Counted from the first letter of the stretch, positions 553 through 19,381 are shown. The stretch is DNA of 19,381 bases from a virus (IMGVR_UViG_2861069343_000003:1-19381), one strand, 5' to 3'. Made by a program: numbers and translations. The notes: generated by a model from the letters alone, not told the origin.

Positions 553-1900
553 AAAGTCATTCTCGAAAAAAAACCTTCTAAAAGTATACTCTGAAAAAAT
601 CAAAGAATCAGGAGCGATTGGCATAGATCGGATTCGCCCATCAAAACTTGATTTGACAATAAAAAATGAGATCACTTTCATTTTTGAAAAGGTTAATTCT
701 GGCAATTACAAATTTACAGCATATAAAGAAAAATTAATATCTAAAGGCGCTAACTCTACACCCAGACAGATTTCCATACCAACTGCTAGGGACAGAATTA
801 CTCTTAGAGCTCTCTGTGAATGCCTTACGGAAATATATCCTAAGTCCAGATTAAAACTACCACATACAGTAATTGACTCATTGAAAGAAGCATTAAACAA
901 CAGTCTATATGCTGAATATGCAAAAATAGATCTTAAAAGTTTCTATCCTTCAATTGAACATAAATTGATAATTAATGCAATAAAAAATAAAATTAGAAAA
1001 AAAGAAATTAGACAGTTAATAACATCATCATTAATCGTGCCTACTGTAAGTGGAACCACAGGAAGCAAAGGTATCCCTAATAATACCAGAGGAGTACCTC
1101 AGGGATTAGCGATATCAAACATTTTAGCTGAAATATCACTATCTAATTTCGATGATGAAATCAATAAAATGCATGACATATGGTACATGCGATACGTTGA
1201 TGACATTCTTATTTTAACACCAAAATATCAAGCAACAAAAATAGCTTCTCATATCATTGATAAGCTTCAATCATTAAATTTAAACCCACATCCATTAAAT
1301 GAAGAGAACTCAAAATCCAAAGTAGGCAGTTTGGATGAAAGTTTTAACTTTTTGGGATACCACATAGAAAATCGAGAATTATTGATAAAACATGAGAGCA
1401 TTCTTAGATTTGAGTCATCCTTAGCAAAAATTTTTACTGCATATAGGCACGCTCTACTACAAGCTAAAAGTAAGCGTGATAAAGAACGAGCTGTTGCATA
1501 TTGTCAGTGGAAACTAAATCTCAGAATTACGGGATGTGTGTTTGAAGGTAAACGATTGGGATGGGTATCGTACTTCTCACAAATAACCTCAACAGCTCAA
1601 CTTCGCTCTGTTAATCATACTATCAATAATCTTATCCGCCGATTCGGCCTTTCATCAGAAATAAAACCAAAATCTTTGATTAAAACTTTCTATGAACTCC
1701 GCAGAGGTAGAGCGGAGACTTTTAAATACATACCTAACTTTGACAATCTACATATATCTCAGAAACGAGAACTTGTTTCTATGTGGATAGGTAAAGAGAA
1801 GGAAAAAAAACTTAGCAATAGTGAAATAGAGAGGAAGTTTAAATTTAAAATTGCGAAATCAGTAAAAGAGCTTGAAGAGGATATTTCAGGAATATCATAG
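524..1900 (+). CDS. Reverse transcriptase, prokaryotic defence-associated type (UG/Abi-like or retron-like). It has a complete finger/palm motif set and a ~200-aa alpha-helical C-terminal extension.
   Basis: 458-aa ORF. RT motifs are visible: GIDRIRPS (motif 1), RQISIPTARDRITLRAL (motif 2), AKIDLKSFYPSIEHKLI (motif 3), RGVPQGLAISNILAEISL (motif 4, QGxxxSP type; DNA ~1091–1111), YMRYVDDILIL (motif 5 with YVDD catalytic box; DNA ~1194–1205) and FLGY (motif 7). There is no maturase/X, Zn-finger or endonuclease domain, so it is not a group II intron. There is no DGR-type I/LGxxxSQ motif 4. It is AT-rich (~32% GC). The alternative start at 530 (MTASRIF) cannot be excluded. Confidence 0.85.
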   Translation: MTMTASRIFKKSFSKKNLLKVYSEKIKESGAIGIDRIRPSKLDLTIKNEITFIFEKVNSGNYKFTAYKEKLISKGANSTPRQISIPTARDRITLRALCECLTEIYPKSRLKLPHTVIDSLKEALNNSLYAEYAKIDLKSFYPSIEHKLIINAIKNKIRKKEIRQLITSSLIVPTVSGTTGSKGIPNNTRGVPQGLAISNILAEISLSNFDDEINKMHDIWYMRYVDDILILTPKYQATKIASHIIDKLQSLNLNPHPLNEENSKSKVGSLDESFNFLGYHIENRELLIKHESILRFESSLAKIFTAYRHALLQAKSKRDKERAVAYCQWKLNLRITGCVFEGKRLGWVSYFSQITSTAQLRSVNHTINNLIRRFGLSSEIKPKSLIKTFYELRRGRAETFKYIPNFDNLHISQKRELVSMWIGKEKEKKLSNSEIERKFKFKIAKSVKELEEDISGIS

Positions 1901-5300: not shown

Positions 5301-6039
5301 TTGCCGCCACTTTTGAAGCCGACGCATCCCGGGCTGAGGTGGCAGCTTCTGACGCTTTCGTGGTCGCGGTGGATGCAGAAGTGGCCGCAGATTTTTGTGA
5401 TGCTGCGGCATTCGTTTCTGACGTTTTCGCTGCACCGGCACTGGTGGCTGCCGCGCTTTTTGAAGACTCTGCAGCGGCAGCACTTTTTGATGCTTCAGTA
5501 GCCTTTGTTGATGCCGTTCCTGCGCTGGAAGACGCTGACTGAGCCGACGACGCGGCCTGTCCGGCTGACGTGCTGGCTGCGCGTGCGGAGTCCGCAGCAT
5601 CAGTCGCATGGGTTGCCGCCTCACGGGCTGATGTGCGGGCATCACTGGCTGACTTCTTCGCGGCTGCCGTGTTCTGTGCTACTGCGGACGCGTTACGCGC
5701 CACCTCTTCCACCATCAGTTCAAAGCGGCGCAGTGCCTCCGGACGGACATCATCCTCCGTCATGGCACCGAGAAAATCATTCAGCGTACCCGGTTGTGAG
5801 TCTTCATACACGGTGATGGTCCCGGCATGCGATGGCGGGAAGCCTTCCACCAACAGAATAACGCTGTACTGACCGTACTCAACGTCCATGCTGTAACGCC
5901 CGGCTTCATCCGGGTTTTCTGAGGCCACTGTGTTCACCACCACCGTGGTGCTGTTGCGCCTGGCCTTTAGCTGAATGGTGCAGTTTTGTATCGGCTTACC
6001 TGCGCCATCTTTCAGTACACCTGAAATCCGTACTGCCAT
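2338..6039 (-). CDS. stf: Side tail fibre protein (1233 aa) with three parts. The N-terminus is like the lambda Stf tail-attachment domain. The shaft is a long Ala/Ser/Thr-rich degenerate repeat (DNA ~5052–5697). The C-terminus is a self-cleaving intramolecular chaperone domain (CIMCD, peptidase S74-like; DNA ~2341–2715).
   Basis: The N-terminus MAVRISGVLKDGAGKPIQNCTIQLKARRNSTTVVVNTVASENPDEAGRYSMDVEYGQYSVIL is near-identical in pattern to lambda Stf. AAKTSETNA-type repeats occur in the shaft. The C-terminal ...NQSSDRRLKENIEIIDNATDAIRKINGYTYTL... carries the S-D-x-x-L-K-x-N-I autoproteolysis signature of endosialidase-type chaperone domains and ends in a coiled coil (EEENAELKQRLSAIEAALASK). 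No separate tfa gene follows it. Confidence 0.85.
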   Translation of the reverse strand: MAVRISGVLKDGAGKPIQNCTIQLKARRNSTTVVVNTVASENPDEAGRYSMDVEYGQYSVILLVEGFPPSHAGTITVYEDSQPGTLNDFLGAMTEDDVRPEALRRFELMVEEVARNASAVAQNTAAAKKSASDARTSAREAATHATDAADSARAASTSAGQAASSAQSASSSAGTASTKATEASKSAAAAESSKSAAATSAGAAKTSETNAAASQKSAATSASTATTKASEAATSARDASASKVAAKSSETSAASSAGSAASSATAAGNSAKAAKTSETNADNSAQAAADSQTASANSATAAKKSETNAKNSEAAAKVSETNAKASENKAKEYLDKVGGLVSPMTQYDWPVVTGNESFYIKIAKLSDPGSGNCHVTLMVTNAGNYGSPYGNIDFIEISARGLPSLLSADNVSRHLSIRRLGSTGLTDNNQMRYGLVKGDGFIEVWAFQRAFINGAKVAVLAQTARPELYIPDGFVKQTAAPSGYVESPVVRIYDQLNKPTKADLGLSNAMLTGAFGLGGSGISTNGKMSDVEILKALRDKGGHFWRGDRPTGSTATIYSHGSGIFSRCGDTWSAINIDYSTAKIKIYAGNDARLNNGTFSVNELYGSANKPSKSDVGLGNVTNDAQVKKSGDVMSGDLDILKETPSIRLKSAKGTAHLWFMNNDGSERGVVWSPENNESLGEIHIRAKNTKGESSGDFIVRHDGRVEARNLKITYKISAATAEFANTSTSSDNTTVSIKGSQHTPLVLTSNNTIKNLSIGFKVDDVDQKYLGIAGDGDLYFGSYSDHTKNSKVITQAKLDSGVTVGGKTTFSDLATFNAGMAGSIEPETIDNKTIDLNDLIIANTVAGSVKYYQCKTVAGGAYITNKPDGVSGNFLLRVESTRKTTGSDYAIMQTLIGSDTKRIYVRFVVNGSWTEWSQVVVSGWNQDVTVRSLTSTTPSKLGGGRVDVLGSTSDYSSMNCAVRGVDSTGTNSAWSVGTSKNTGKMLCLKNHRSSAQVLLNGDDGAVQLLSGTVNGATAQALTINKDEVNSTADLVIRKQTGTGNRFALLNSGNSELPVSIRVWGSSTRQNVFEVGTSAAYLFYAQKTTDGQNLTVNGSVNCTTLNQSSDRRLKENIEIIDNATDAIRKINGYTYTLKENGAHCAGVIAQEVEEAIPEAVGSFIHYGEELQGPTVDGNELREETRYLNVDYAAVTGLLVQVARETDDRVTSLEEENAELKQRLSAIEAALASK

Positions 6040-6103
6040 ATTCCCCCCACAAAAAAACCCGCCTGAACCGGCGGGCTGTCATAACACTGTGTTACCTGGC
6101 TAA

Positions 6104-6703
6104 TCAGAATTTATAACCGACACCCACGATGAAACCGTCAGTGCGCCAGTCACCACTGCCGGAACCTTCATAAGCAATATCAATGGCCACGGATTCGGTC
6201 GGGTTAAACTGCACGCCAGCCCCCCACGCCAGAGACGTGTTGCTGTGGCGACCGTCATCACTTCCGGTCAGCACATCGTGCGTTTTCCCCTTGTTGTCAG
6301 TTACGCGGAGATAATCCCCGGAGAAAGTCGACACACGGCTGTAAGCCACACCCGCCATCGCATACGCGCTGAACCATTCATTCACGCGCACAGACGGCCC
6401 CGCCATCACGCTGAACCAGCGGTTACGCACGGAATCCTCATGCCAGCGGGTATCGCTGTAATGCGTTTTTTGCTCATCTTCAGCGTTGGCATAACTGAAT
6501 GACGTAATCAGCCCCAGCGTGTCCGTAAACTCATAACGGTATTTCACGTTAATCCCGTTCAGATTATCGCTGCCGGGAGCGTTCGTACGGGCATGAAGAT
6601 ACCCTGCGCTCAGTGTGGCCTGCTGCTCAGACGCCCATGCAGGCGCACCGGATACGGCCAGACAGATGGCTGCGGACAAAATGGCTGCACAAACTTTACG
6701 CAT
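6104..6703 (-). CDS. lom: Lom outer-membrane protein (Ail/Lom/PagC family) with signal peptide
   Basis: The 199-aa ORF MRKVCAAILSAAICLAVSGAPAWASE...GFIVGVGYKF matches lambda Lom almost along its whole length (beta-barrel OMP ending in a C-terminal F). It sits between J and stf as in lambda. Confidence 0.9.
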   Translation of the reverse strand: MRKVCAAILSAAICLAVSGAPAWASEQQATLSAGYLHARTNAPGSDNLNGINVKYRYEFTDTLGLITSFSYANAEDEQKTHYSDTRWHEDSVRNRWFSVMAGPSVRVNEWFSAYAMAGVAYSRVSTFSGDYLRVTDNKGKTHDVLTGSDDGRHSNTSLAWGAGVQFNPTESVAIDIAYEGSGSGDWRTDGFIVGVGYKF

Positions 6704-6726
6704 AATTACCTCTCGCTTTTCTGCAA

Positions 6727-6753
6727 TAAAAAAGGCGCCAGAAATGGCGCCCG
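6727..6753 (-). terminator. Rho-independent terminator between J and lom (minus strand)
   Basis: On the minus strand, GGCGCC-ATTTCT-GGCGCC (plus 6734–6751) is followed by TTTTTAT (plus-strand A-run 6728–6733). A lom RBS and ATG lie immediately downstream. Confidence 0.6.
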
Positions 6754-6771
6754 CATATGGGTTATGAAAAT

Positions 6772-9700
6772 TCAGCTAATCGTGATACCTGCTGTGGATT
6801 TCTTCATCACCACAACCAGCAAATCACTGATACTGGCTGTGGGATACCAGTCATTTACCAGCCACGCTGATACCGAAAACTCCAGCGTCATGTGACCGCG
6901 ACCAGCAGGCATATCAATAACACCTGTATAAACCAGCGTATTATCCAGCGCGGTACGGTTATAAATTTCAGCACCGTTTTTCTTCACTATCAGGCGGCAT
7001 GACGAATAAATATCGTTATTCTCCCGCTCATGTTTAGCGCCACGAAACGCCACCGCGGGAATAACAATCTGCCGGTCAAACGGCTGATCGTCATAAACCC
7101 TGACGGTAATGGTCCCTGATGGCCACCGCTCCGGTGCACGGGAGTCCCGGGGGAAAGCTTTGCCCACTGTTTTAACGAGATCGCCTTCAATCTGGTTCGC
7201 AGACAGTTTTCCCAGAACCCGACAGTTTTCATTTATCGTGACATTGTTGAGCGTCCCGGCGTTCGCATTCACACTGCCACTGATATCCGCATTTTTCGCC
7301 GTCAGTCGCCCGTCCGGTGTAAGGGAAAATACCGGAGGATTACCGCCGCTGGTAATGGTGGGAGCCGTCAGATATTTCAGGAACACTTCGTTCATGAATA
7401 TCTGATCGCCCTGACCAACAAACATCGGCTTTGTGTTGCCATTCGCAGGATTAATCATCGCAATCCTGTCTGCCGCCAGCAGCACCTGACTCTGCATGCC
7501 GTCAGGGGTGTTCTCAATACCGGCACCAATACCCGCGATATAAAGGCGTCCGTCCTGCATCTGCTGCAGCTTCACAGCCCACATGCTGTTCAGGTTATTA
7601 TTTGTATCAACCTGAACCTTCTGTATCTGCTGAATTGCCGCACTCTGGTCTTCCAGTTTCTTATTGACGGTCTGTGTGATTTCATTGCTGACATCCGTAA
7701 TGGATGTCCTGATTTCAGCCAGGTCAGGCGCAAGCTGACCGTTATCAATCTGCGTCCACAGCTCCTGAGCCAGATGGGTTTTCCCTATCTCGCCTTTGAA
7801 AAAATCCAGATAGCCGGATGCGTCATCACTCGGCTGACCAACAGCCTCCACGAATGCCGATTTGCCAACGGTGTTCACACTGCGAACGTAAAAATAATAA
7901 TTATGGCCCGGTTTGATATTGATACTGGCGGCTATCCAGTACAACGCCGTACCAAGATAGCGTGCTGTGGTTTCAACCTGCCTGATATCCGCAATCCGCT
8001 TTTCCGAGAACCAGAACTCAAACTGTACCGTCGGATCATAAACCGCAAGATGCGGCGTGGCGGTTATCTGAAAATAGCCCGGCGTCAGCTCAATCCGCGA
8101 CGGCGCTGCCGGTGCGGCAATCCGGAACGATACCGACGCCGGATCGCCCTGCTGCCCCCACGCATTTACTGCCCGGACTGTCAGCCTGTAGTTCCCCAGA
8201 GCCAGTTGTGTGAAGCGGTAAGTGGTTTCCGTCGTCCGGGCCGTGCTGACCAGCCGCTCACTGCCGTCATCCGCTGCCACGGTCAGGCGAAGCAGGAAGC
8301 TCACGCCCTTCACCACCTTCGGCGTGTCCCAGCGGGCCAGCACCTGGTATTCCCCGCTGTCTGCGGTGACTTCTGCGGTCAGATGCTGCACTGCTGGCGG
8401 CGTGACACCATTCACCGTGCCGCTCTGGTCGCCGTCAAAGTGCGCCCCGTTATCCACGATGGCCTCTTTTTCCGGTACATGCTGCACGGCAGTGATGGCA
8501 TACGTGCCGTCATCGTTCTCACGGATACTCACGCAGCGGAACAGGCGCTGGCGCAGCGTCGGCAGCTTCAGCCCCCACACGCTGTACTCGGCAACGCCGT
8601 CAGGAAGCCGGCTCACTTTCACCTTCACGCCGTCGGTGATGGACTGGACCTCCACGCTGACCGGATTGCCACTTCCGTCAACCAGGCTTATCAGCGTGGT
8701 ACCGGAGGATGGCAGCGTGATTTCACGGTCGAGCGTCAGCGTCCGGGTCTGGCTGTTCACCGCCAGCACGCGCCCGCCGGTGCTGATACCGGCATAGTCA
8801 TCATCGCAGATTTCAATGACATCGCCCGGTACATGGCGAAGCCCTTCAGCACCCACGCTGAAGTCCACGGTCTGCGTTTCCAGCAGCTCCGTTTTAATCA
8901 GCCACAGCCCGGCGCGGTGCGCCTGCCCCCGACTGGTACAGCCAAACGCATCCATCTTCGTGACGTTACGACCATAACGGGCAATGGCCTGCGAGTCCTC
9001 CACAAGCTCTGTTGCCGTCTCCCAGCCGTTATCCGGGTCAATCCAGTTCACTTCAACGGCATTATGGCGGTCTTTCAGGGCGCTGAAGCTGTAGCGGAAT
9101 GGTGCGCCATCATCCGGCATCACCACATTACTGCGGTTATAGGTCCACACCTTATCCGATGGTCGGTCCTGCACGAACGTCAGCGTCTGCCCGTTCCATA
9201 CCGGCATACAGCGCATCGCCGAGCAGAAATCACTGAGCACATCCCACGCCTTACGTTGTGTGGTCAGGTAAGCGTTACAGGTGATGCGCGGCTCCGTACC
9301 GCCAAAGCCGTCCGGCACCGACTGGTCGCAATTCTGGCCGATGACATACAGCGCCCATTTGTCCACATCCGCCGCACCGAGACGTTTCCCCATGCCGTAG
9401 CGCGGGTGGGTCAGCATATCCCACAGACACCAGGCCATGTTGTTGCTGTATGACGGTTTAAACGTCCCGTCCCAGATACCGCTGTATTGCCGCGTCTGCG
9501 GGTTATAATTCGACGGCACCTGCAGAATACGCCCGCGAAGATGATAATTACGGCTCACCTGCTGGCTGCCGAACTGCTCCGAATCCACCTGTACGCCGAC
9601 CAGTGCCGTGTTCGGGTAGCACTGTTTCACATCGATGATTTCGGTGTATGACGACCAGAGCGTTTTGTTCTGCAGCTGGTCTGTGGTGCTGTCCGGCGTC

Positions 9701-10251
9701 ATCCTGCGCATCCGGATGTTGAACGGGCGCGGCGGCAGATTATCCACCACTACCGAGGCCAGATACTGCGAGGTGGTTTTGCCCTTAATGGTGATGTCTT
9801 TTTCCGTCACCCAGCCACCGTTACGCTGTATCTGAACCAGCAGGCGGACTTCCGACGGATTCCGGTCCCCCTTTGAAGTGGTTTCCACCAGTGCCTGCAC
9901 ACCGAAGGTAAAGCGCAGACGGTCAATGTTTGCCGACGTGATGGTCCGGGTGATCGGCGTGTCGTATTTCACTTCCGTGCCCAGTACCGTCTCGGAACCT
10001 GATGATTCAAATCCCTCCGGCGGTGTCTGTTCCTGCTCACCTGCCCGGAACACCACCGTGACACCGGAGATGTTAGTATTCCCCTCACTGTCCAGCACCG
10101 GTGTACTGTTCAGCAGCACGCTTTTTAATCCATCCACCGGACCTTCAACCGGCCCTTCGCTGATGGCATCGATCACACTCAGCAACTGCGTGGACTTCAG
10201 GTTGTCCTTTGCTTCGCGCGGGGTATGCCCCTTACTGCTGCCTTTACCCAT
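6772..10251 (-). CDS. J: Tail tip/central fibre host-specificity protein J (1159 aa)
   Basis: The size, position (after I, before lom) and sequence character are lambda J-like ([24 protein letters not shown]...; C-terminal ...[20 protein letters not shown]). A strong SD (GTGAGGAATG) precedes the start. Large antisense ORFs inside it, such as 7774..9453, are GC-driven artefacts. Confidence 0.9.
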
Positions 10252-10273
10252 TCCTCACGCCCCATAAACGATA

Positions 10274-10293
10274 AAACCGCCCGGAGGCGGTTT
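10274..10293 (-). other. Stable GC hairpin in the I–J intergenic spacer, immediately upstream of the J ribosome-binding site
   Basis: The plus strand reads AAACCGCC-cgga-GGCGGTTT (8-bp stem). On the minus strand it is followed by TATCGTTTATGGGGCGTGAGGAATG, the J SD and start. Confidence 0.4.
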
Positions 10294-10311
10294 CACATAA
10301 AACGTTTTTCA

Positions 10312-10953
10312 TCAGCGACCAATCACCACAACCTGACCACCGTCCCCTTCGTCTGCCGTGCTGATCTCCTGAGAAACCACGCGTGATCCCACGCGCATTT
10401 CACCGTACAGAACGGGCAGAACATTGCCCTGGGCAACCATATTATCCAGTGAAGAAAAATAGGTGTTCTGTTTGCCGTTATCCGTTGTCTGTGTGCGGGG
10501 GGTTTTGGGTTTAGGGGCCAGCATCTGTGCAACACCGCCAAGCGTCATACTGGCACCGAGAGAAAACAGCAGATTACTCGCCATAATTCCTACCCCCGGC
10601 ATCCATATAGCAACCGCCATAACAGCCGCCCCCAGCACAGCCTGAAACACACCGCCACTTTTGGCTCCTGCCAGACGCGGCACGATATGGATCACAGCAC
10701 CATTTGCCAGCGGTTCATTAAGACGGGCTGATAATTCCGTTTCACCTGTATCACGCCCGGCAATGCGTACCTGATACCAGCCGTCGCTCAGCTTCTGACG
10801 AAACGCCGGGAGCTGTGTGGCCAGTGCCCGGATGGCTTCAGCCCCCGTTTTCACACGCAGATCGATGCGGCGGCCAAATCGTTGTAAATCCCCGTAAAGG
10901 CAGATGCGCGCCATGCCCGGTGACGCCAGAGGGAGTGTGTGCGTCGCTGCCAT
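10312..10953 (-). CDS. I: Tail assembly protein I
   Basis: The 213-aa ORF MAATHTLPLASPGMARICLYGDLQRFGRRIDLRVKTGAEAIRALATQLPAFRQKLSDGWYQVRIAGRD...GDGGQVVVIGR is lambda gpI-like (ubiquitin-like N-domain plus hydrophobic Gly/Ala-rich middle). It overlaps the K 3' end, as is typical for this cluster. The true start may be the internal MARICLYG. Confidence 0.85.
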   Translation of the reverse strand: MAATHTLPLASPGMARICLYGDLQRFGRRIDLRVKTGAEAIRALATQLPAFRQKLSDGWYQVRIAGRDTGETELSARLNEPLANGAVIHIVPRLAGAKSGGVFQAVLGAAVMAVAIWMPGVGIMASNLLFSLGASMTLGGVAQMLAPKPKTPRTQTTDNGKQNTYFSSLDNMVAQGNVLPVLYGEMRVGSRVVSQEISTADEGDGGQVVVIGR

Positions 10954-11594
10954 TTGTCGGTATACCTCTCTCGTTTGCTCAGTTGTTCAGGAATATGGTG
11001 CAGCAGCTCGCCGTCGCCGCAGTAAATTGCGGCGTGATTCGGCACCGATGAACCAAAACAGCACAGCAGCACATCGCCCGGCTGTGCCGCTGACAACGGC
11101 ACCTGATACAGCCCCGTCGCCTCCAGATTATCCAGATAGAGATTCTGGCCGTTACGCCACCAGTCATCCTCACGATGAAAGTCCGGCATCTCAATCCCCG
11201 CCAGATGATAAGCATCCCGGAACAGTGTGTAACAGTCCGTCACACCGTGCTCAAAGCGCCGCCCGGTGAGATGCGGCACACAGCGGAACTTATGAATCGT
11301 CCCCCGGCAGACCAGCCACCACGGCAAATCACTCTGCACCTGCAGCCGCCGGTCGGCCTCACTCAGCCAGGGCAGACCACCGGGGTGGCTGTGGACCAGC
11401 GCCACAATCTCACCCTGCATTTCTGCCTGCAGCCAGTCTTCCGGCGACATACGGAAATACGCCTCCGGCTCACCGGAGATATTCACGCAGGGGAAATATC
11501 TTTCCCCCTCCGGCGTGCTTACCACGAAGCCGCACGACTCCGCTGGCGCACATCGCCGGGCGTGCGCCAGAATCGCTGATTCTGTCTGTGTCAT
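10851..11594 (-). CDS. K: Tail assembly protein K (N-terminal JAMM/MPN metalloprotease-like domain plus C-terminal NlpC/P60 domain)
   Basis: The 247-aa ORF starts MTQTESAILAHARRCAPAESCGFVV... It contains the JAMM motif EIVALVHSHPGG and a downstream Cys/His papain-like region (GVTDCYTLFRDAYHLAG ... HHIPEQL). It is lambda gpK-like. Confidence 0.85.
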   Translation of the reverse strand: MTQTESAILAHARRCAPAESCGFVVSTPEGERYFPCVNISGEPEAYFRMSPEDWLQAEMQGEIVALVHSHPGGLPWLSEADRRLQVQSDLPWWLVCRGTIHKFRCVPHLTGRRFEHGVTDCYTLFRDAYHLAGIEMPDFHREDDWWRNGQNLYLDNLEATGLYQVPLSAAQPGDVLLCCFGSSVPNHAAIYCGDGELLHHIPEQLSKRERYTDKWQRRTHSLWRHRAWRASAFTGIYNDLAAASICV

Positions 11595-11599
11595 GGGAT

Positions 11600-12085
11600 T
11601 TACTGCGAAAGTTTGTTAATGGAAAGGAAGCCGCCAAAGTTGCCGACGTTATTGCGGAACTTACAACCGCTCAGGCATTTGCTGCATTTATCCTTCGTGA
11701 TATCGGACGTTGGCTGGTCATATTCATCCGCGACAGCCGGACCGCTATAACCGCACTCGTCACCGCGATAGGTCCAGGTGCAGGTGTTGGCCAGCATGAT
11801 ACGTCCCGGAAAAACAGCGCCATCCGTTTCCGTCGGCGTGGACAGTACAAAGGAGGCACTCACCGCGCTCAGTTCGCTGCACTGCTCAATGCGCCAGCGG
11901 CTGATCACCTCCTGCTCCGGATCGGCATAACTGTTTCCGTTGACGAAGTTCACCGCATCCAGAAAACGGGCGTAAACATTACGCCGGACCACCGTTCCGC
12001 CGACCAGACTCTGCATATCTTCCGCCATCCCGGTGACCATACCGTACAGGTTAGAAACCGTCAGCGTGGGGCGCGTACCGCTCTT
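11600..12085 (-). pseudogene. L: Minor tail protein L, 5'-truncated remnant. Only the C-terminal ~160 codons are present and there is no start codon in homologous context.
   Basis: The frame reads ...KKSGTRPTLTVSNLYGMVTGMAEDMQSLVGGTVVRRNVYARFLDAVNFVNG...FGGFLSINKLSQ*. It matches lambda gpL from its TRPTLTVSNLYGM region to the C-terminus. Upstream of ~12085 the frame hits a stop (plus-strand 12107–12109) and L similarity ends. The first in-frame ATG is at 12040. Confidence 0.75.
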
Positions 12086-12225
12086 TTTACAAAACAGAGA
12101 AGAGCATCACCGGACGACGGGCTCATAACCCAATCCATCCGGGCGGCAGTCACCGCAGGTGTTCTTCTCTGTTTTGTGGAGAAACCAACCGACCTTGCAG
12201 GGTCGATATGATGGGGAGCAGCAAA

Positions 12226-14495: not shown

Positions 14496-15115
14496 TGACC
14501 ACATTTACCGATAAAGAACTGATTAAAGAAATCAAAGAGCGTATCAGCAGCCTGGAGGTTCGAGACGATATTGAGCGCCGTGCTTATGAAATTGCTCTGG
14601 CATCGCTGGAAGAGGAGCCGGTGGCATGGCTACATTCAGACAATGGCTTAGGTATTCCAGCAATAACCAGGAGTAAAAACATTGCTGACAGTTGGTTATC
14701 AAAGGGCTGGTATGTTCAGCCGCTATATATAGCCAAGCCAGTGCCGGTGGTGCCAGATGCTCGTCCGACTTTAAATAATGGCATAGTCGGTTTTGATGAA
14801 GGCTGGAACGCCTGCCGCACCACCATGCTTCACGGTGTCAAACCTGTAAGCCAGACTTACAAGTTGAACAAGCTGTCTGACAACTCTCCGGTAACTCCGG
14901 ATGGTTGGATAAGCTGTAGTGAGCGAATGCCGAACGATAAACAATATGTTTGGTGTTGGGGTAAGTCTTACGGCTGGACTGAGTGCGATACCTTCGAAGG
15001 GTATTACGATTGTTCGAGAAACAAATGGTGGGCAGTTACTGACGATGGGGAAGAACCGGCATTGAAAGTAACCCACTGGATGCCGCTACCGGAGCCACCG
15101 CAGGAGGTGAAGTAA
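14495..15115 (+). CDS. yfdT: YfdT-like prophage protein (full-length form, 206 aa) with a C-terminal DUF551-like domain
   Basis: ATGA start/stop overlap with the previous gene. The C-terminal ...ALKVTHWMPLPEPPQEVK is the DUF551 signature. The position corresponds to yfdT in KplE1. Confidence 0.55.
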   Translation: MTTFTDKELIKEIKERISSLEVRDDIERRAYEIALASLEEEPVAWLHSDNGLGIPAITRSKNIADSWLSKGWYVQPLYIAKPVPVVPDARPTLNNGIVGFDEGWNACRTTMLHGVKPVSQTYKLNKLSDNSPVTPDGWISCSERMPNDKQYVWCWGKSYGWTECDTFEGYYDCSRNKWWAVTDDGEEPALKVTHWMPLPEPPQEVK

Positions 15116-15309
15116 TGAACAACTTAATGACAACTAAACAAGTCGCCGACTTCTGTGGCGTTTCAGTATCGACAGTTCTTCGCTGGAACAGCGTAAACAG
15201 GAGAACTGGCCAGAAATATAGGCCTGACTTTCCAGATCCTGATATTAAATCCTGCCCCAATAAATGGGCATCACACAAGATATACAGGTTTGCGGGAGTT
15301 ATTGAGTAA
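15115..15309 (+). CDS. Small winged-helix/HTH DNA-binding protein of the Xis/AlpA/TorI excisionase-regulator family
   Basis: The 64-aa ORF has an HTH at TTKQVADFCGVSVSTVLRW. It is the last gene of the yfd block, exactly where torI sits in KplE1 (recalled from memory, not searched). It overlaps the previous stop (TAATGA). Confidence 0.6.
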   Translation: MNNLMTTKQVADFCGVSVSTVLRWNSVNRRTGQKYRPDFPDPDIKSCPNKWASHKIYRFAGVIE

Positions 15310-15323
15310 TACGTATTAGTTCA

Positions 15324-15389
15324 GATGTGAGCTAACACATCTATGGCACAGAGCTAAACCTAATCTGACTGTCTACTCTGTGCCATAAG
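15324..15389. terminator. Pair of hairpins between the convergent torI-like gene and the 870-aa gene. They are likely bidirectional terminators and/or part of a prophage-end attachment region.
   Basis: GATGTG-agctaa-CACATC lies at 15324–15341. The perfect 12-bp inverted repeat TATGGCACAGAG ... CTCTGTGCCATA lies at 15342–15353 and 15376–15387. They sit in the 133-bp AT-rich spacer between the two stop codons. Confidence 0.4.
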
Positions 15390-15442: not shown

Positions 15443-18055
15443 CTAATCACCCTGTGATGTAAAATAAAACCAATGGTATTCTAGAGCTTGCATAGACAAC
15501 CCAACCTTGTCCCTCAATAGGACACCATTCAGCTCCTGATAGTACCTATCGCGCACCATATCACTTACGTGAATCCTTAAAGTCGCTGGGTCAATAGATA
15601 TTAGATAGTTATCAAAGAGACGATGTATATCAGTACGCAATAACAAGCCATTTTTTATATGATTATCCTTATCTCCTCTGTAAGGATAAATATGAGCTGC
15701 ATCAAGTACTGCTATTGTTTTGCACCCAGTAAAGGCACATTGCCCCCAAACGTTTATCAGTTTATTTCTGAAGTCGCTTTGACCTATACGTATCGTGACG
15801 TTTCTATTTATAACCTTTCGTTCATCAGAGTTATTTATTTTAAAACTCCCTGCTGTTGAAAAATCAAATTTTTCAGTCGCACTAAATATTTTTTTAGATT
15901 GTTTTTTTACTTTTGCAAGCTGTAAATCTGACTTTATTTGTAAGGGTTTTGAGTTTTCTTCATCAAACGATGGAAGTTGAAGTTCTTTAATCATGCTGGT
16001 AGATAGAAAATTTTTGTAACTCATTAACTTAAAATCTAATCCTCGCTCATAACGAATTTTAGAGAGCACTATTGCAGCTTCTTCAATGTATTTAAAACTA
16101 CTTTTCCTTTTATCCCATAATTGAGATAAACAATCTGCATTTAACCTATCATATCTTGATAAAATCTCACCCAAACTGCTGGCTTTAGCGGCGCTATCAT
16201 AGTTTATATACTGTTTTTCTTGGGAATCTTCAATGGAATCCAGAATAAAATTTATATTTACATGATTATCTGCATCTGCATCTGCAGATGCAGATGAATC
16301 ATTAAAATTATCGTAGTCAAGAGAATTTTGATCACTCCAAATAGGTAGCGATAGATAGCAAATATTATCAATGCTGTCGTCCACCAACATTAATTTTTGG
16401 TGGAGTAAAAATAATATAACTGAAGCTTCAAGGTAATTCATTTCTTGTGACAAGAATTTTTCTTTAAGCATATCAAAGTCATATTGTACGTATTCATTTT
16501 TTTTCTTTGATATTACGGAGAGTTGCTCTTCACTTAAGACCACTGGCCTGTCTTCTGATATATTACGAAGTAAGTATGAAATCAATTTTTTTTGATTTTT
16601 TTTAGAATCTTCAGACCTAGGAGGTTCGAGAAACACACCTTCAAGTCTATCCAATGCTTTAAGGCAACTTCCCGCAAGCCTAGTCATCGCATCTTTTCTT
16701 GTTTGAATTAGAGGATCTGCATAGATAACAAAATTATCCCCATTACGAATATGAGCTATTTCAAGCTGATATACATCTAGATTTTTTATAAGTTTAAATA
16801 CAAATCCGTATTTTTGCATTCTATGCAAAGTCAGTGTCGGTATAATATCTTTATTAGATTCTTCATCCAAATTATAGTTTTTTATTCTTTTGTACAACCA
16901 ATTTGTTGCAGAGGAAGAGCAAATTAACTCATTATATTGAATTTTACTATTTTTAGTTATCAGATTTAGAAGAGACATTCCAAACAATGCCTGAATACAA
17001 TCTACATAATAAGATATAGTTGTATAATCTGGATGTCCTTTATAGGGGAGAGAATCTATTGAAATAAAACCTGAGTTATAGAATCTCATAAAGTTTTTTT
17101 CAGATAACACCATGATCCCTAACGTAGTTCTGTCAATAACATTCTGTCCATTTTTTATTATCTCAAGTAGGCTTACTGAAGCTAGTAAGGAAATATAATG
17201 CGAACCTAAAGTAGCGAGATCTCTGTGCGAACTTATAGATCTATTTTTACCCTTTATTCTAGGGGGTATAAAAGCCTGGATTGAATTAAAGTTATTTGAA
17301 AAACCAAAAGCCATGTTCAATTCATTGTTGATGTAACACTCTTTAACATTCGGTTTCTGTACGCCACCCCATGCTGAAATAATACTATTAGATTTTAATA
17401 TTTGTTTTTTATTGTTTTTCAAATTCAAATGATTGCAAACTAAACTGGCAACATTATTCTCTGCTTTTTTTTTACTCTCACCACTTCCGATAAATATCTG
17501 TCCATTAGGAAGTGCTATTTCAGACTCATATATTGGTGCATGCTCGGTCCCACCAGCCAAGGTGGTTTTGTATGTAGGGATTATGTGTTGATGTCTTTGG
17601 AAATATTCATGTAAAAGAGTTTTTGGGGGTTTGCCAACAAATGACTCCGTAATAGAAAGGCTTTCAACAAAAAATTTGAGATGTAATATGATATCACAAT
17701 TAGATATCGCCCCTAGGTAAAATTGAAATATTTGAATTATCATAGAAGATGAGTTGATTTCTTCTTGTTTTACTCCAGGACCAAATTCTGTTTGTTGGTA
17801 GACTTTTGTTAAGGGAAAATTTGTAACAACAAGCTCTCTTAGTTTTTTCTTCAGGCTGCTAGTCATAATGCTTAAATTGTTACCATCCGCACCTTCTATA
17901 CTCAGAGACCGACAAGCGCAGATTAAATCCTCAAGCGACTTACCAACTGATACAGTTGCGTTAAACAATTCAGTATTGCAATTAAAAGATGAACGATGAC
18001 TTATCTGAATATAATTTTCGTTGATATGATTTATGAATAACTTATTCATTTTCAC
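15443..18055 (-). CDS. Large multidomain protein (870 aa). It has an N-proximal dsRNA-binding domain (dsRBD) preceded by a probable degenerate dsRBD, a long uncharacterised middle region with an acidic low-complexity linker, and a C-terminal HNH_2-family (His-Me finger) nuclease domain. It is a candidate single-gene defence or abortive-infection effector.
   Basis: Residues ~148–213 (DNA ~17417–17614) read KTLLHEYFQRHQHIIPTYKTTLAGGTEHAPIYESEIALPNGQIFIGSGESKKKAENNVASLVCNHL. This matches the canonical dsRBD pattern (P-x-Y ... G-x-x-H-A-P-x-F ... G-x-G-x-S-K-K-x-A ... L). Residues ~68–100 (KKKLRELVVTNFPLTKVYQQTEFGPG) look like a degenerate first dsRBD. The C-terminus (DNA ~15590–15769) reads GQCAFTGCKTIAVLDAAHIYPYRGDKDNHIKNGLLLRTDIHRLFDNYLISID, the HNH_2 pattern (C..TG...L.AAHI.P......NGL.L....H..FD). 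GC is ~29%. A strong SD (GAGGTG) and its own promoter lie upstream. Confidence 0.8.
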   Translation of the reverse strand: MKMNKLFINHINENYIQISHRSSFNCNTELFNATVSVGKSLEDLICACRSLSIEGADGNNLSIMTSSLKKKLRELVVTNFPLTKVYQQTEFGPGVKQEEINSSSMIIQIFQFYLGAISNCDIILHLKFFVESLSITESFVGKPPKTLLHEYFQRHQHIIPTYKTTLAGGTEHAPIYESEIALPNGQIFIGSGESKKKAENNVASLVCNHLNLKNNKKQILKSNSIISAWGGVQKPNVKECYINNELNMAFGFSNNFNSIQAFIPPRIKGKNRSISSHRDLATLGSHYISLLASVSLLEIIKNGQNVIDRTTLGIMVLSEKNFMRFYNSGFISIDSLPYKGHPDYTTISYYVDCIQALFGMSLLNLITKNSKIQYNELICSSSATNWLYKRIKNYNLDEESNKDIIPTLTLHRMQKYGFVFKLIKNLDVYQLEIAHIRNGDNFVIYADPLIQTRKDAMTRLAGSCLKALDRLEGVFLEPPRSEDSKKNQKKLISYLLRNISEDRPVVLSEEQLSVISKKKNEYVQYDFDMLKEKFLSQEMNYLEASVILFLLHQKLMLVDDSIDNICYLSLPIWSDQNSLDYDNFNDSSASADADADNHVNINFILDSIEDSQEKQYINYDSAAKASSLGEILSRYDRLNADCLSQLWDKRKSSFKYIEEAAIVLSKIRYERGLDFKLMSYKNFLSTSMIKELQLPSFDEENSKPLQIKSDLQLAKVKKQSKKIFSATEKFDFSTAGSFKINNSDERKVINRNVTIRIGQSDFRNKLINVWGQCAFTGCKTIAVLDAAHIYPYRGDKDNHIKNGLLLRTDIHRLFDNYLISIDPATLRIHVSDMVRDRYYQELNGVLLRDKVGLSMQALEYHWFYFTSQGD

Positions 18056-18081
18056 CTCGTGTATTATTCGATAAAGATCAC

Positions 18082-18110
18082 ATTGTACGTGATATCAACT
18101 ACTTGCTCAA
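18082..18110 (-). promoter_or_regulatory. Sigma70-like promoter for the 870-aa gene
   Basis: On the minus strand: -35 TTGAGC (plus 18105–18110), a 17-bp spacer, -10 TACAAT (plus 18082–18087), then the SD GAGGTG (~18062–18067) and ATG at 18055. Confidence 0.5.
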
Positions 18111-18157: not shown

Positions 18158-19381
18158 TCAGTTAGAGTCTGAGTTAGTACAAGTAACAATCGATTCAACT
18201 CTCTCCCACCATGCCTGGTAGGCTTTACGCTGTTCTTCTAGATAATCGCTCTTGTCATAAACTTGCCATACCCCTGGCAGTTTATGACCTAGCATTATTT
18301 CTGCAATATGAGGCGCAGTAAGATCAGAAAAGTTTGTTCGTGCTGTTCGTCTCAAATCATGAAGAGACCAATGAGGAAATTGATACCCCAAACGCCGCCA
18401 TGCGTACTGCATTAAATTGTAAGGCAGCGACTGCAATGATGTCCGACCAACTGGTTCCCTGCTTCCTTCCTTAGTAAAAAGCATATCGGAACCGTTGTTC
18501 ATAGAGATAACGTATTTTATAATCTCTTCAACCGGTTCAATAATGGGCCGCTTTAGCGGTTCGCCTGTTATATCCCCTGTCTTATGTCGTTCTGGTGGTA
18601 CAGTCCATATCTTATTAATGAAATCAAAATCGTCCACCTTGGCAGTAATTAGCTCTGAACTACGGCAACCAAAATGAAGCAATAGTTTAATGAAGGCCCG
18701 GTATTTAGGAACCATTCGAGAACCATCGATCGCAGCATAAAGGATTTTAATTTCATCATGTGTCAGAAACCGTTTCTTCTGACCTTTACGGATATCCATA
18801 TCTTTACCCGTGATATCCGACAGCGGGCGAGTTTCAATGAGCTTTCTCTTATACGCCCAGACATGGGCCTGCTTTGCGTTAATTAGCAATCGGTCTGCTA
18901 TTGCTGGAGTCTTAGTGCTAAGAGGCTCCAGGACTTCTAACCAATCATGCAATGTAGCTGCATCGTTAGGGATATTCCCGATTTTAGAGAACAGGTGCAG
19001 CTCAAACGAGCGGAGTATCTGTTCAGAACCTTTTTTATTTTTTACACAATATGCTTCATACCAGGCACGGATCACAGACTCTACCGTCATGGCTTCAGTA
19101 GCTTTTCGTTTTTCAGCCTGCTTGACCAATCGTGGATTACGGTTTGACTCGAGTTCACCACGGAGACGGATAACTTCTTCTCTGGCCTCTTTTAATCCAG
19201 TTGCCGGGTAAGTTCCGATATCAAGACGCTCACCTTTCCCTGCCCATTGATAACGATATTGGAACACTACGCGACCTTTCGGTGATACTCTGACAGACAA
19301 ACCATCACGATCGGATTTAACCAAAACCTTATCACGTTCCTTTCCAACGACTGAACGCAACCACGCATCAGACAGCGCCAT
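18158..19381 (-). CDS. int: Tyrosine recombinase/integrase, P4-like family. The start codon is at the last base of the window. The gene is transcribed toward the 870-aa gene.
   Basis: The 407-aa ORF has an N-terminal arm-binding region (MALSDAWLRSVVGKERDKVLVKSDRDGLSVRVSPKGRVVFQYRYQWAGKGERLDIGTY) and a C-terminal catalytic region with R...HDLRRTART...LGHK...Y (WSLHDLRRTARTNFSDLTAPHIAEIMLGHKLPGVWQVYDKSDY). Confidence 0.9.
   Translation of the reverse strand: MALSDAWLRSVVGKERDKVLVKSDRDGLSVRVSPKGRVVFQYRYQWAGKGERLDIGTYPATGLKEAREEVIRLRGELESNRNPRLVKQAEKRKATEAMTVESVIRAWYEAYCVKNKKGSEQILRSFELHLFSKIGNIPNDAATLHDWLEVLEPLSTKTPAIADRLLINAKQAHVWAYKRKLIETRPLSDITGKDMDIRKGQKKRFLTHDEIKILYAAIDGSRMVPKYRAFIKLLLHFGCRSSELITAKVDDFDFINKIWTVPPERHKTGDITGEPLKRPIIEPVEEIIKYVISMNNGSDMLFTKEGSREPVGRTSLQSLPYNLMQYAWRRLGYQFPHWSLHDLRRTARTNFSDLTAPHIAEIMLGHKLPGVWQVYDKSDYLEEQRKAYQAWWERVESIVTCTNSDSN

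What the first reader, a model, noticed from the sequence alone, without database searches (positions are those of the whole stretch)
15443..18110. 870-aa dsRBD–HNH nuclease next to the integrase: candidate dsRNA-sensing abortive-infection/defence effector
A single, very AT-rich gene (~29% GC against ~52% in the adjacent phage genes) sits at the integrase-proximal cargo position. It encodes a protein whose N-terminal quarter contains an unmistakable dsRNA-binding domain (..PTYKTTLAGGTEHAPIYESEIALPNGQIFIGSGESKKKAENNVASL..). A probable degenerate second dsRBD lies just upstream. The C-terminus is an HNH_2-type His-Me finger nuclease (CAFTGC...AAHIYPY...NGLLLRTDIHRLFD). Tandem dsRBDs feeding an effector domain is the PKR/Staufen/RNase III logic. 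In bacteria dsRBDs are essentially confined to RNase III-like housekeeping enzymes, so a dsRBD fused to a DNA/RNA-cutting HNH domain in a prophage hotspot is unusual. A plausible model is sensing of phage-derived dsRNA (convergent transcripts or replication intermediates) to license nuclease activity. The ~550-aa middle region has no recognisable motif. One stretch (HRDLATLGSHYISLLASVSL) faintly resembles a catalytically dead RNase III signature box, but that is speculative. The gene has its own sigma70-like promoter and strong SD.
Basis: partly seen in the sequence, partly recalled or inferred. Interest (0 to 1): 0.85.

Follow-up and report, generated by a model that had tools for sequence, protein, structure and literature searches.

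The report
Dead tandem RNase III fused to HNH
A rare, horizontally acquired E. coli prophage gene encodes two catalytically dead copies of the dsRNA-cutting enzyme RNase III, predicted to pair up as in eukaryotic Dicer/Drosha, tethered to a restriction-type HNH DNA nuclease, and it sits where other strains carry known anti-phage genes, so it is a strong but untested candidate for a bacterial immune protein that senses double-stranded RNA.

Summary
ORF 15443..18055 (-) encodes a canonical dsRBD (Pfam dsrm, E 2.6e-10) and an HNH_2 nuclease (E 1.5e-13). It is AT-rich (32.8% GC) and lies between a prophage integrase and an excisionase-like gene.

- Module A has lost all catalytic acids but keeps a canonical dsRBD.
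- Module B keeps a strongly conserved, non-canonical site (R278, A281, A/S285, D352, C353, Q355) and has a degenerate dsRBD.

About 20 divergent relatives keep this architecture. They lie next to Hachiman, GmrSD-type genes, BrxR and integrases, and inside a lambdoid phage. In other E. coli strains the same integrase-proximal slot holds Dsr1 or an AIPR protein.

Best reading: a single-protein defence nuclease whose dead RNase III platform senses A-form duplex, most likely phage dsRNA, and licenses HNH cleavage of DNA. Function, trigger and outcome are untested. PADLOC has no full-length model, and I found no paper describing it.

The parts
15443..18055 (-). Whole ORF (870 codons from the GTG). 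The probable true start is the ATG at 18049 (868 aa, RefSeq WP_086625076.1, annotated 'HNH endonuclease').
17651..18028 (-). RNase III-like domain A (residues ~10-135). All-helical and degenerate. The positions equivalent to the catalytic residues are N32, V35, K39, Q108 and Q111, and they vary across the family.
   Evidence: hhalign of residues 1-143 alone against an RNase III profile gives P 5e-6 over Rnc 18-155. Bona fide RNase IIIs align over query 18-212. Conservation is and the fold.
17420..17626 (-). dsRBD1 (residues 144-212). Canonical, and its three RNA-contact regions are conserved: K145/T146/L148/Q149/E150/Q153, G169/H172 and S194/K195/K196/A198/E199.
16856..17323 (-). RNase III-like domain B (residues ~245-400). 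This is the best-conserved part of the family (AFIPPRxK..SHRxLATLG; YxVDCIQALF). The active-site equivalents R278, A281, A/S285, D352 and Q355, plus C353 and G284, are nearly invariant but not catalytic by the canonical rule.
16643..16843 (-). dsRBD2 (residues 405-471). It has alpha-beta-beta-beta-alpha topology at pLDDT ~82-89, but its RNA-contact motifs are degenerate (only R412 and partly K454 are conserved).
16331..16612 (-). Helical region containing repeat 1 (residues ~482-575; the repeat core is 505-575).
   Evidence: The model is helical here. It is homologous to repeat 2 by hhalign (probability 92%, P 5e-7).
16181..16330 (-). Acidic, low-confidence linker of variable length (residues 576-625, DYDNFNDSSASADADADN...).
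   Evidence: pLDDT is below 50. P0003 and P0004 have a large insertion here.
15956..16180 (-). Helical repeat 2 (residues 626-700), with the motif L..LW..R....EEAAxVLS..RYERGIDF....LPS. Shorter HNH_2 proteins of Pseudomonas, Marinobacter and others carry 2-3 copies of this motif.
15446..15823 (-). HNH_2 His-Me finger nuclease domain (residues 745-870). H788, N802, D809 and H811 are invariant. The beta-beta-alpha core is E784-788, E803-807 and H808-815.
18055..18058 (-). Shine-Dalgarno GAGG, 5 nt upstream of the ATG at 18049.
18082..18110 (-). Promoter-like hexamers TTGAGC-17-TACAAT. This is only a candidate; the match is no better than chance.
15342..15387 (.). Perfect 12-bp inverted repeat between the two convergent genes. 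It is a candidate bidirectional terminator.
18158..19381 (-). Tyrosine integrase that bounds the cargo slot. It is present in 699 of 5426 complete E. coli genomes. Six occurrences were inspected (the window's own AR437 record and five other strains), and all lie next to yjjG.
15115..15309 (+). 64-aa HTH_17 excisionase-like gene on the other side of the cargo slot.

Best explanation
The gene encodes a single-polypeptide anti-phage defence nuclease carried as cargo by temperate phages and defence islands.

Sensor. The N-terminal ~470 residues are a duplicated bacterial RNase III (RIIID-dsRBD, then RIIID-dsRBD) that has lost canonical catalysis. The two RIIIDs are predicted to pack into an intramolecular pseudo-dimer like the processing centre of Dicer and Drosha. 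Together with the canonical dsRBD1, this should form a platform that binds A-form duplex without cutting it.

Effector. Two helical repeats and two flexible linkers tether a TagI/VcaM4I-type HNH DNase.

Proposed mechanism. Duplex RNA that accumulates during phage infection (convergent or antisense transcripts, polymerase by-products, RNA-phage replication intermediates) binds the dead RNase III platform. Binding relieves autoinhibition or drives oligomerisation, and the HNH domain then cuts DNA. The cut DNA could be phage DNA near the source of the dsRNA, or bulk cellular DNA (abortive infection).

Shown here: the domain architecture, the loss of the catalytic acids, conservation of the dsRBD1 RNA contacts and the HNH catalytic residues, and the association with mobile elements and defence islands.

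Inferred: the defence function itself, the ligand, the coupling between sensor and nuclease, the nuclease substrate and the outcome for the cell.
For: Architecture:
- Pfam dsrm and HNH_2 both score above their gathering cut-offs.
- A profile of residues 1-215 matches full-length RNase III at E 1.9e-34. Residues 1-143 alone match the RIIID at P 5e-6. Residues 215-480 match a second full RNase III at P 4.4e-6.
- The exhaustive HMMER search aligned genuine RNase IIIs over query positions 18-212.
- Two relatives give weak Pfam RNase III hits at exactly the two predicted sites.
- The AlphaFold model built on 31 sequences has mean pLDDT 77.
- Foldseek aligns Dicer, DCL and Drosha over 480-600 columns.

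Conservation:
- The catalytic acids are lost in both RIIIDs.
- The site in module B is nearly invariant (R278, A281, G284, D352, C353, Q355).
- The dsRBD1 RNA-contact residues and the HNH residues H788, N802 and H811 are conserved.

Defence context:
- The same integrase-proximal slot holds Dsr1 or an AIPR protein in other E. coli strains.
- A UG17 reverse transcriptase plus SLATT (DRT-class) system sits at the other end of the same prophage remnant.
- Relatives lie next to two GmrSD-type genes, Hachiman plus an AAA_15/21 ATPase pair, and BrxR with MksE and DUF7281 genes.
- One relative is in an integrase/resolvase islet, and another is a moron in a lambdoid phage.
- No conserved partner gene was found.
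- The gene is AT-rich and present in only 17 of 5426 complete E. coli genomes.
Against: - There are no functional data of any kind.
- PADLOC has no full-length model. Only its generic HNH models hit.
- The hhalign P-values for module B alone are modest (1.2e-4).
- dsRBD2 lacks the canonical RNA-contact motifs.
- The strongly conserved, non-canonical site in module B has no explanation. It could serve something other than dsRNA binding.
- E. coli already has active RNase III, which clears dsRNA. It is unclear how a trigger threshold would be set or how self dsRNA would be tolerated.
- HNH_2 enzymes with solved structures read modified DNA, not RNA.
- Only about six informative neighbourhoods were examined, with no statistical enrichment test.
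Confidence: 0.5

Rival explanations
1. Hybrid-directed restriction. The dead RNase III/dsRBD platform reads RNA:DNA hybrids (R-loops, replication primers, reverse-transcription intermediates) rather than dsRNA. The HNH domain cuts the DNA strand in or next to the hybrid, much as the Cas9 HNH cuts the DNA strand of an RNA:DNA heteroduplex. Invader DNA would be restricted directly, without cell suicide.
For: The closest structural relatives of the effector are DNA-cutting reader-HNH restriction enzymes. Hybrids are also A-form-like. The Cas9 HNH cleaves the DNA strand paired to the guide RNA (stated in PMC5714182). The conserved non-canonical site in module B could reflect a changed ligand. One relative lies directly downstream of two GmrSD-type restriction genes.
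Against: dsRBD1 keeps the full canonical dsRNA-contact set, including the residues that read 2'-OH groups on both strands. From general knowledge, dsRBDs and RNase III bind hybrids much more weakly than dsRNA. Nothing in the sequence points specifically to hybrids.
Confidence: 0.15
2. Decoy or guard of host RNase III. The catalytically dead tandem RNase III mimics the host Rnc dimer and is bound or modified by phage proteins that target RNase III. That event, not RNA, releases the HNH nuclease.
For: The N-terminus is an RNase III homologue over its full length, with a predicted dimer-like arrangement. The catalytic residues are dispensable for the family. From general knowledge, guard and decoy logic is known in bacterial immunity, and some phages modify RNase III (T7 gp0.7).
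Against: Identity to real RNase III is only ~20%, so surface mimicry of E. coli Rnc is unlikely. The family occurs in hosts with very different GC content and neighbourhoods. The most conserved residues line the RNA-contact and active-site positions, not the outer surface.
Confidence: 0.1
3. Not a host-defence gene. The protein serves the carrying phage or island in another way, for example processing or sequestering structured RNA for its own regulation, degrading host or competitor DNA during induction, or acting as a selfish nuclease.
For: The gene is carried inside a lambdoid phage genome between the replication and late genes and in a prophage remnant. From general knowledge, HNH nucleases in phages often serve packaging or homing. 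The phage database search found only HNH-level relatives.
Against: Several relatives sit in non-phage contexts beside known defence systems, including directly downstream of BrxR. The E. coli copy persists intact in a decayed, non-inducible prophage remnant whose other cargo is a DRT system. Alternative cargo at the same slot includes known defence genes. The HNH type is that of restriction enzymes, not of homing or packaging HNHs.
Confidence: 0.1

Closest known systems
Bacterial class 1 RNase III (Rnc; TIGR02191, PF00636/PF14622 plus PF00035)
   Same: Each of the two N-terminal modules is collinear with a complete RNase III, an RIIID followed by a dsRBD. E. coli RNase III is the best sequence hit in the PDB and the best Foldseek hit. 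The dsRBD1 RNA-contact residues are retained.
   Different: There are two modules in one chain instead of a homodimer. The catalytic E/D residues are lost in both. TIGR02191 scores 37 bits against a cut-off of 166. The protein is fused to a DNase. It is rare, AT-rich and on mobile elements rather than a housekeeping gene.
Eukaryotic Dicer and Drosha (RNase III enzymes with two RIIIDs forming an intramolecular dimer)
   Different: This protein has no helicase, PAZ or platform domains. Its domain order is RIIID-dsRBD-RIIID-dsRBD. It is catalytically dead, so it cannot dice. Its output would be DNA cleavage by HNH rather than small RNAs. It most likely arose by independent duplication of a bacterial RNase III. 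Koonin 2017 states that no Dicer orthologue exists in prokaryotes (PMC5303251).
Reader-HNH modification-dependent restriction enzymes (TagI, VcaM4I; related to ScoMcrA-type PT-dependent enzymes)
   Different: Pfam found no other DNA-reader domain in the protein. Instead it is an RNase III/dsRBD duplex-RNA platform, and a duplicated helical repeat separates it from the HNH domain.
HEPN-RNase III-dsRBD fusions of cyanobacteria (Anantharaman et al. 2013, PMC3710099)
   Same: This is a bacterial conflict-system protein that joins RNase III and a dsRBD to a second nuclease.
   Different: Those were predicted to be active 'two-headed RNases' with a single RNase III domain and a HEPN RNase. Here the RNase III domains are duplicated and dead, and the partner is an HNH DNase.
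Mitoribosomal protein mL44 (a pseudo-RNase III plus dsRBD)
   Different: It is a single-module structural ribosomal protein with no effector domain.

Membership tests
dsRBD (Pfam PF00035 dsrm) | Profile score above the gathering cut-off | tested here: met
   41.2 bits against 23, E 2.6e-10, residues 144-210
dsRBD (Pfam PF00035 dsrm) | alpha-beta-beta-beta-alpha fold with conserved RNA-contact regions 1-3 | tested here: met
HNH_2 His-Me finger nucleases (PF13391) | Profile score above the cut-off, beta-beta-alpha core and the catalytic His/Asn/His | tested here: met
Bacterial RNase III (TIGR02191 equivalog) | Full-length score above the NCBIfam cut-off | tested here: not met
   37.4 bits against 166.25, and only the dsRBD part aligns
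Bacterial RNase III (TIGR02191 equivalog) | Signature ERLEFLGD and the catalytic acids (E. coli E38/E41/D45/D114/E117) | tested here: not met
   Module A has N32, V35, K39, Q108 and Q111. Module B has R278, A281, S285, D352 and Q355.
RNase III superfamily (homology and fold only) | RIIID helical fold collinear with RNase III, followed by a dsRBD | tested here: met
Dicer/Drosha-type RNase III | Two RIIIDs in one chain forming an intramolecular dimer | tested here: inconclusive
   Two RIIIDs in one chain are shown. The dimer geometry is inferred from one predicted model, in which 258-293 residues superpose on Giardia Dicer and Drosha. pTM is only 0.47, and I could not inspect the coordinates.
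Dicer/Drosha-type RNase III | Catalytically competent processing centre, and PAZ/platform or helicase domains | tested here: not met
   The catalytic acids are absent. No such domains appear in the Pfam results.
Modification-dependent (type IV) reader-HNH restriction enzymes | A modified-DNA reader domain fused to HNH | tested here: not met
   The HNH domain is homologous. Pfam reports no domains other than dsrm and HNH_2, and the region upstream of the HNH is RNase III-like or helical repeat.
Any catalogued anti-phage system (PADLOC-DB v2.0.0) | Full-length match to a system-specific model | tested here: not met
   Only the generic HNH models PDLC04132 and PDLC03546 hit, and only over residues 715-836
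Defence-island or MGE cargo gene (operational criterion) | Recurrent location next to known defence genes or in variable cargo slots of mobile elements | tested here: met
   This is qualitative: about six neighbourhoods plus the alternative cargo at the same slot, with no enrichment statistics.
Abortive-infection system | Infection-triggered death or arrest of the infected cell that protects the population | not testable with these tools
   This requires phage challenge at high and low multiplicity of infection

The most novel reading that the evidence does not exclude
This would be the first bacterial innate-immune receptor that recognises double-stranded RNA as a pathogen-associated pattern. 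The receptor would be a prokaryotic, catalytically dead, Dicer/Drosha-like intramolecular RNase III pseudo-dimer wired to an HNH DNase. Bacteria would then have evolved a 'sense dsRNA, then destroy' antiviral logic using the same fold that eukaryotes recruited for RNAi. It could also defend against RNA phages, which DNA-targeting systems cannot see.
Probability: 0.35. Interest if true: 0.9.

Novelty: new variant of a known kind. Interest (0 to 1): 0.72.

Why it matters
- **dsRNA sensing in bacteria.** dsRNA is the classic viral danger signal in eukaryotes (PKR, RIG-I/MDA5, Dicer, OAS). No bacterial defence system built on an RNase III/dsRBD sensor turned up in my searches, including a 2026 review of homologies between bacterial and eukaryotic immunity (PMC13276650).
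- **Two RNase III domains in one chain.** This arrangement is treated as a hallmark of eukaryotic Dicer and Drosha (PMC5303251). Here it appears in bacteria, in defence hotspots, with catalysis removed and a DNase attached. That makes the question "do bacteria sense phage dsRNA?" directly testable with one gene and a few point mutants.
- **Practical use.** A dsRNA-gated DNase would be a new tool. The family also supplies a non-cleaving, high-avidity duplex-RNA binder.
- **A concrete hotspot.** The work documents an integrase-proximal defence hotspot next to yjjG in E. coli. Its cargo alternates between Dsr1, an AIPR protein, this gene and unknown genes.

Tried and rejected
- **Word-indexed homologue searches.** Both searches, one with the single protein and one with a 23-sequence profile, returned only the same four clusters. 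The exhaustive HMMER search was needed to find the family.
- **First AlphaFold run.** With a 4-sequence MSA it was unusable outside dsRBD1 (pLDDT 34).
- **Early single-sequence comparison.** hhalign of the 4-sequence family against my recalled E. coli Rnc sequence was not significant for either RIIID alone. It became significant only with deeper profiles on both sides.
- **Representative-genome scan.** The run with A4 was swamped by the conserved HNH motif. It returned mostly shorter repeat-plus-HNH_2 proteins (about 210-500 aa) and no intact full-length member. One partial member sits at a Moraxella caprae contig end.
- **Conserved partner gene.** The idea was rejected. The two 239-aa upstream neighbours in L002 and L089 are unrelated, and other neighbours differ.
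- **Second dsRBD upstream of residue 148.** Rejected.
- **RNA partner.** None was found. Rfam gave only a sub-threshold, chance miRNA hit.
- **Phage and plasmid collections.** They hold no full-length relative. The hits were HNH-only or genuine rnc genes.
- **AFDB fold search.** The library was not available.
- **Helical repeat identity.** Pfam scans of the full-length proteins gave nothing for the helical repeat region except one sub-threshold HTH_56 hit in P0008. The RNase III profile found nothing in residues 480-740. The repeat's fold class remains unassigned.
Full report

Yes. The ORF listing gives one long ORF at 15443..18055 on the minus strand, 870 codons from a GTG.
- Pfam finds dsrm at residues 144-210 (E 2.6e-10, 41.2 bits against a gathering score of 23). 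It finds HNH_2 at 773-822 (E 1.5e-13, 50.8 bits against 21).
- NCBIfam's RNase III equivalog matches only the dsRBD part (37 bits against a cut-off of 166).
- PADLOC matches only generic HNH models over residues 715-836.
- The ORF is 32.8% GC.
- The upstream sequence reads acGAGGtgaaaATG. The Shine-Dalgarno overlaps the GTG, so the ATG at 18049 (the RefSeq start, 868 aa) is the likely start.
- The promoter-like site TTGAGC-17-TACAAT at 18110..18082 exists. In this AT-rich stretch such matches are no more frequent than in shuffles: 9 found against 14.5 +/- 4.0 expected.
- A perfect 12-bp inverted repeat (15342-15387) separates the gene from the convergent 64-aa HTH_17 excisionase-like gene.

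**2. Where is it?**

The window is E. coli chromosome (100% identical to strain AR437). It is a decayed lambdoid/CPS-53-like prophage remnant inserted between prfC and yjjG.
- PGAP calls the gene simply "HNH endonuclease".
- The full gene is present in 17 of 5426 complete E. coli genomes.
- The adjacent integrase is present in 699 genomes. In each of the six occurrences I inspected (the window's own AR437 record and five other strains) it lies beside yjjG.

In four strains I inspected that have the integrase but not the gene, the slot between the integrase and the DUF551 genes holds other cargo:

| Strain | Cargo at the slot |
|---|---|
| EC20 | anti-phage sirtuin Dsr1 |
| CT30 | AIPR-family protein |
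| JNEC-KY204 | 595-aa "ATP-binding protein" |
| O157:H7 146N4 | 515-aa hypothetical protein |

The far end of the same remnant (window 1-1900, 33.6% GC) carries a SLATT protein plus a UG17 reverse transcriptase. Both hit PADLOC DRT-class models at 1e-56 and 1e-158. So the gene occupies a variable-cargo slot that holds known defence genes in other strains, inside an element that also carries a defence system.

**3. What is the protein?**

The word-indexed search found only four clusters. These were the E. coli protein, one at 85% identity and two at 46-49%, all collinear over the full length.

The exhaustive HMMER search with residues 1-740 found 19 hits below 1e-30 and about 20 full-length relatives of 680-940 aa at 19-40% identity. 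Every relative that extends to both ends has dsrm plus HNH_2.

In that search, genuine 220-230-aa RNase IIIs aligned from query position ~18 to ~212, not just over the dsRBD. The best PDB sequence hit (E. coli RNase III, 7r97) also extended into the RIIID helix ADTVEALIG.

I tested this with profile-profile comparison against an alignment of 19 of those RNase IIIs plus E. coli Rnc:

| Family segment | Match in RNase III | P or E value | Probability |
|---|---|---|---|
| 1-143 alone | Rnc 18-155 (RIIID) | 5e-6 | 86% |
| 1-215 | Rnc 17-226 | 1.9e-34 | 99.9% |
| 215-400 alone | Rnc 9-150 | 1.2e-4 | 55% |
| 215-480 | Rnc 8-225 | 4.4e-6 | 87% |
| 480-740 | nothing | - | - |

Two relatives independently give sub-threshold Pfam RNase III hits at exactly those two places: P0013 at 29-109 and P0024 at 286-311. 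The N-terminal 470 residues are therefore a tandem duplication of a complete RNase III, each copy an RIIID plus a dsRBD.

**4. Structure.**

With four sequences AlphaFold was uninformative outside dsRBD1. With 31 sequences the model reached mean pLDDT 77, with most domain blocks at 80-95. It shows:
- helical 2-132;
- dsRBD1 at 144-209;
- helical 225-400;
- a second alpha-beta-beta-beta-alpha unit at 405-471;
- helical 482-569;
- a disordered acidic stretch at 575-625;
- helical 628-690;
- a disordered stretch at 699-755;
- a beta-beta-alpha HNH core at 784-815.

Fold searches gave the following:
- Foldseek against the PDB ranks E. coli and Aquifex RNase III first. It aligns Dicer, DCL3, DCL4 and Drosha over 480-600 columns.
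- A single RIIID has about 130-150 residues. Superposing 258-293 residues at that rmsd therefore requires both RIIID-like domains to sit as in the Dicer/Drosha intramolecular dimer.
- This is a prediction. pTM is 0.47, and I could not inspect the coordinates or the residue alignments.
- In the viral structure library the top hit is a giant-virus tandem RNase III.

**5. Which residues are kept?** (31-sequence alignment)

- **Module A.** The positions equivalent to E. coli E38/E41/D45/D114/E117 are N32/V35/K39/Q108/Q111. They vary across the family, so this site has decayed.
- **Module B.** The equivalents are R278 (R21/K4), A281 (A23/S2), A/S285, D352 (21 of 24) and Q355 (22 of 25). C353 (24 of 25), G284 (all) and Y349 flank them. 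This is the most conserved part of the whole family (AFIPPRxK..SHRxLATLG and YxVDCIQALF). It lacks three of the four metal-binding acids, so canonical RNase III catalysis is excluded, yet the site is under strong selection.
- **dsRBD1.** It retains all three canonical RNA-contact regions.
- **dsRBD2.** It does not retain them, and resembles the protein-interaction type of dsRBD.
- **HNH.** H788, N802, D809 and H811 are invariant.

**6. The linker region.**

Residues 505-575 and 622-700 are homologous copies of a ~70-aa helical unit (hhalign probability 92%, P 5e-7). The unit's motif is L..LW..R....EEAAxVL...R...GID....LP.

The scan of representative genomes found many shorter HNH_2 proteins (about 210-500 aa) in Pseudomonas, Marinobacter, Pseudoalteromonas and others. 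They share only residues ~617-866. The 280-500-aa ones whose sequences I read carry two or three copies of this repeat in front of the HNH, with no RNase III part. The repeat-plus-HNH effector is thus a pre-existing cassette to which the tandem RNase III sensor was added.

**7. Context of relatives**.

Informative neighbourhoods:

| Locus (protein) | Neighbourhood |
|---|---|
| L092 (P0010) | directly downstream of two GmrSD-type genes |
| L093 (P0017) | near an AAA_15/21 ATPase pair, HamA plus helicase (Hachiman) and another helicase |
| L094 (P0015) | 9 nt downstream of a BrxR/WYL regulator, next to MksE (weak hit) and DUF7281 genes |
| L089 (P0013) | an integrase/resolvase islet between dnaX-ybaB and ligA-zipA |
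| L002 (P0002) | beside another HNH_2 gene and an IS3 transposase |
| L101 | a 918-aa member between the replication/ParB genes and the DUF968-lysis-terminase genes of a lambdoid temperate phage |

No neighbouring gene is conserved. The two 239-aa upstream ORFs are unrelated. The protein therefore looks like a single-gene system.

**8. Mechanism.**

The best-supported reading is a reader-effector defence nuclease. A non-cleaving platform that binds A-form duplex (a tandem dead RNase III pseudo-dimer plus a canonical dsRBD) is tethered by flexible linkers to a restriction-type HNH DNase. Binding of duplex RNA produced during infection would license DNA cleavage.

Shown here:
- the architecture;
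- the loss of catalysis;
- retention of the RNA-contact and HNH catalytic residues;
- the link to mobile elements and defence hotspots.

Inferred:
- the ligand;
- the coupling between sensor and nuclease (the acidic linker may act as an autoinhibitory mimic, or activation may work by oligomerisation on long duplexes);
- the substrate;
- whether the outcome is abortive infection or local restriction.

Rivals:
- recognition of RNA:DNA hybrids, with Cas9-like cutting of the DNA strand;
- a decoy of host RNase III that senses phage proteins;
- a function that benefits the phage rather than the host.

The unexplained near-invariance of the R/A/A/D/C/Q site in module B is the main loose end.

**9. 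Comparison and novelty.**

- The protein is homologous to RNase III but fails the enzyme's defining features.
- It resembles Dicer and Drosha in having two RIIIDs in one chain, but it lacks their other domains and their catalysis.
- The nearest published precedent I found is the HEPN-RNase III-dsRBD fusion noted in cyanobacteria (PMC3710099).
- The His-Me finger classification does not mention a dsRBD or RNase III partner in its main text; I did not check its supplementary domain-architecture figures (PMC5714182).
- Koonin 2017 states that no Dicer orthologue exists in prokaryotes (PMC5303251).
- A 2026 review of bacterial immunity mentions RNase III only for eukaryotic Dicer (PMC13276650).
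- Five further full-text searches found nothing matching.
- These searches cover only the held library, so prior description elsewhere cannot be excluded.

I classify it as a new variant of a known kind: a modular single-protein reader-nuclease defence gene whose sensor type has not been described in bacteria.

Noticed in passing
window 1-1900 (+): A SLATT_5 protein (1-552) overlaps a reverse transcriptase (524-1900). They hit PADLOC RT-associated SLATT (1e-56) and RT_UG17 (1e-158), which makes this a DRT-class defence pair. It is AT-rich (33.6% GC) and sits at the opposite end of the same prophage remnant.
   Followed up: partly
L096 1991-5818; L098 4044-5744; L099 3922-5709; L097 4282-5829: The slot between this integrase and the DUF551 genes, next to yjjG, is a variable-cargo hotspot in E. 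coli. It holds Dsr1, an AIPR-family protein, a 595-aa 'ATP-binding protein' and a 515-aa hypothetical protein in four other strains. The last two are uncharacterised candidates.
   Followed up: partly
L006, L007, L009, L014, L015, L020, L021 (ORFs ending near 10550-10810): A family of 380-475-aa proteins in Pseudomonas, Marinobacter, Pseudoalteromonas and Marinobacterium has 2-3 copies of the helical repeat 'L..LW..R....EEAA..LA..R...G.D' followed by HNH_2. They have basic, low-complexity N-termini and no recognised sensor domain.
   Followed up: partly
protein P0044 (218 aa): This is a stand-alone degenerate RNase III. It has EHYQSIGKSF in place of ERLEFLGDSV, and it carries the family's 'FGPGV' motif and a canonical dsRBD. 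It aligns with query positions 18-207 (E 1.6e-11). It may be a free-standing relative of module A or an evolutionary intermediate.
   Followed up: no
L090 5528-5716 and L091 422-610: A 62-aa ORF with no Pfam hit lies immediately upstream of the P0008 family member, in the same position on two independent contigs. It could be a small regulator or partner specific to that subclade.
   Followed up: no
L005 249-1751 (Moraxella caprae DSM 19149): A family member resembling P0014 is cut off near a contig end. Only the C-terminal ~500 residues are in frame, with 248 nt upstream. It is the only named non-E. coli isolate in which I saw the family.
   Followed up: no
window 2338-12211: The rest of the element is tail genes only: a 1233-aa tail fibre, Lom, gpJ, a tail assembly protein, a C40 peptidase and a truncated gpL. 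These abut the early genes yfdP, yfdQ and yfdR. RefSeq marks several pseudogenes here. It is a deleted, non-inducible remnant that has nevertheless kept both AT-rich cargo modules intact.
   Followed up: no
BFVD A0A3G5AGS1 (Satyrvirus, 539 aa): A giant-virus 'putative ribonuclease 3' aligns with the model over 533 columns (E 7.7e-11). It is another non-cellular protein with tandem RNase III architecture.
   Followed up: no
window 18240-18300 (+): Rfam mir-3204 scores 29 bits against a gathering score of 90, inside the integrase gene. This is a chance match.
   Followed up: yes
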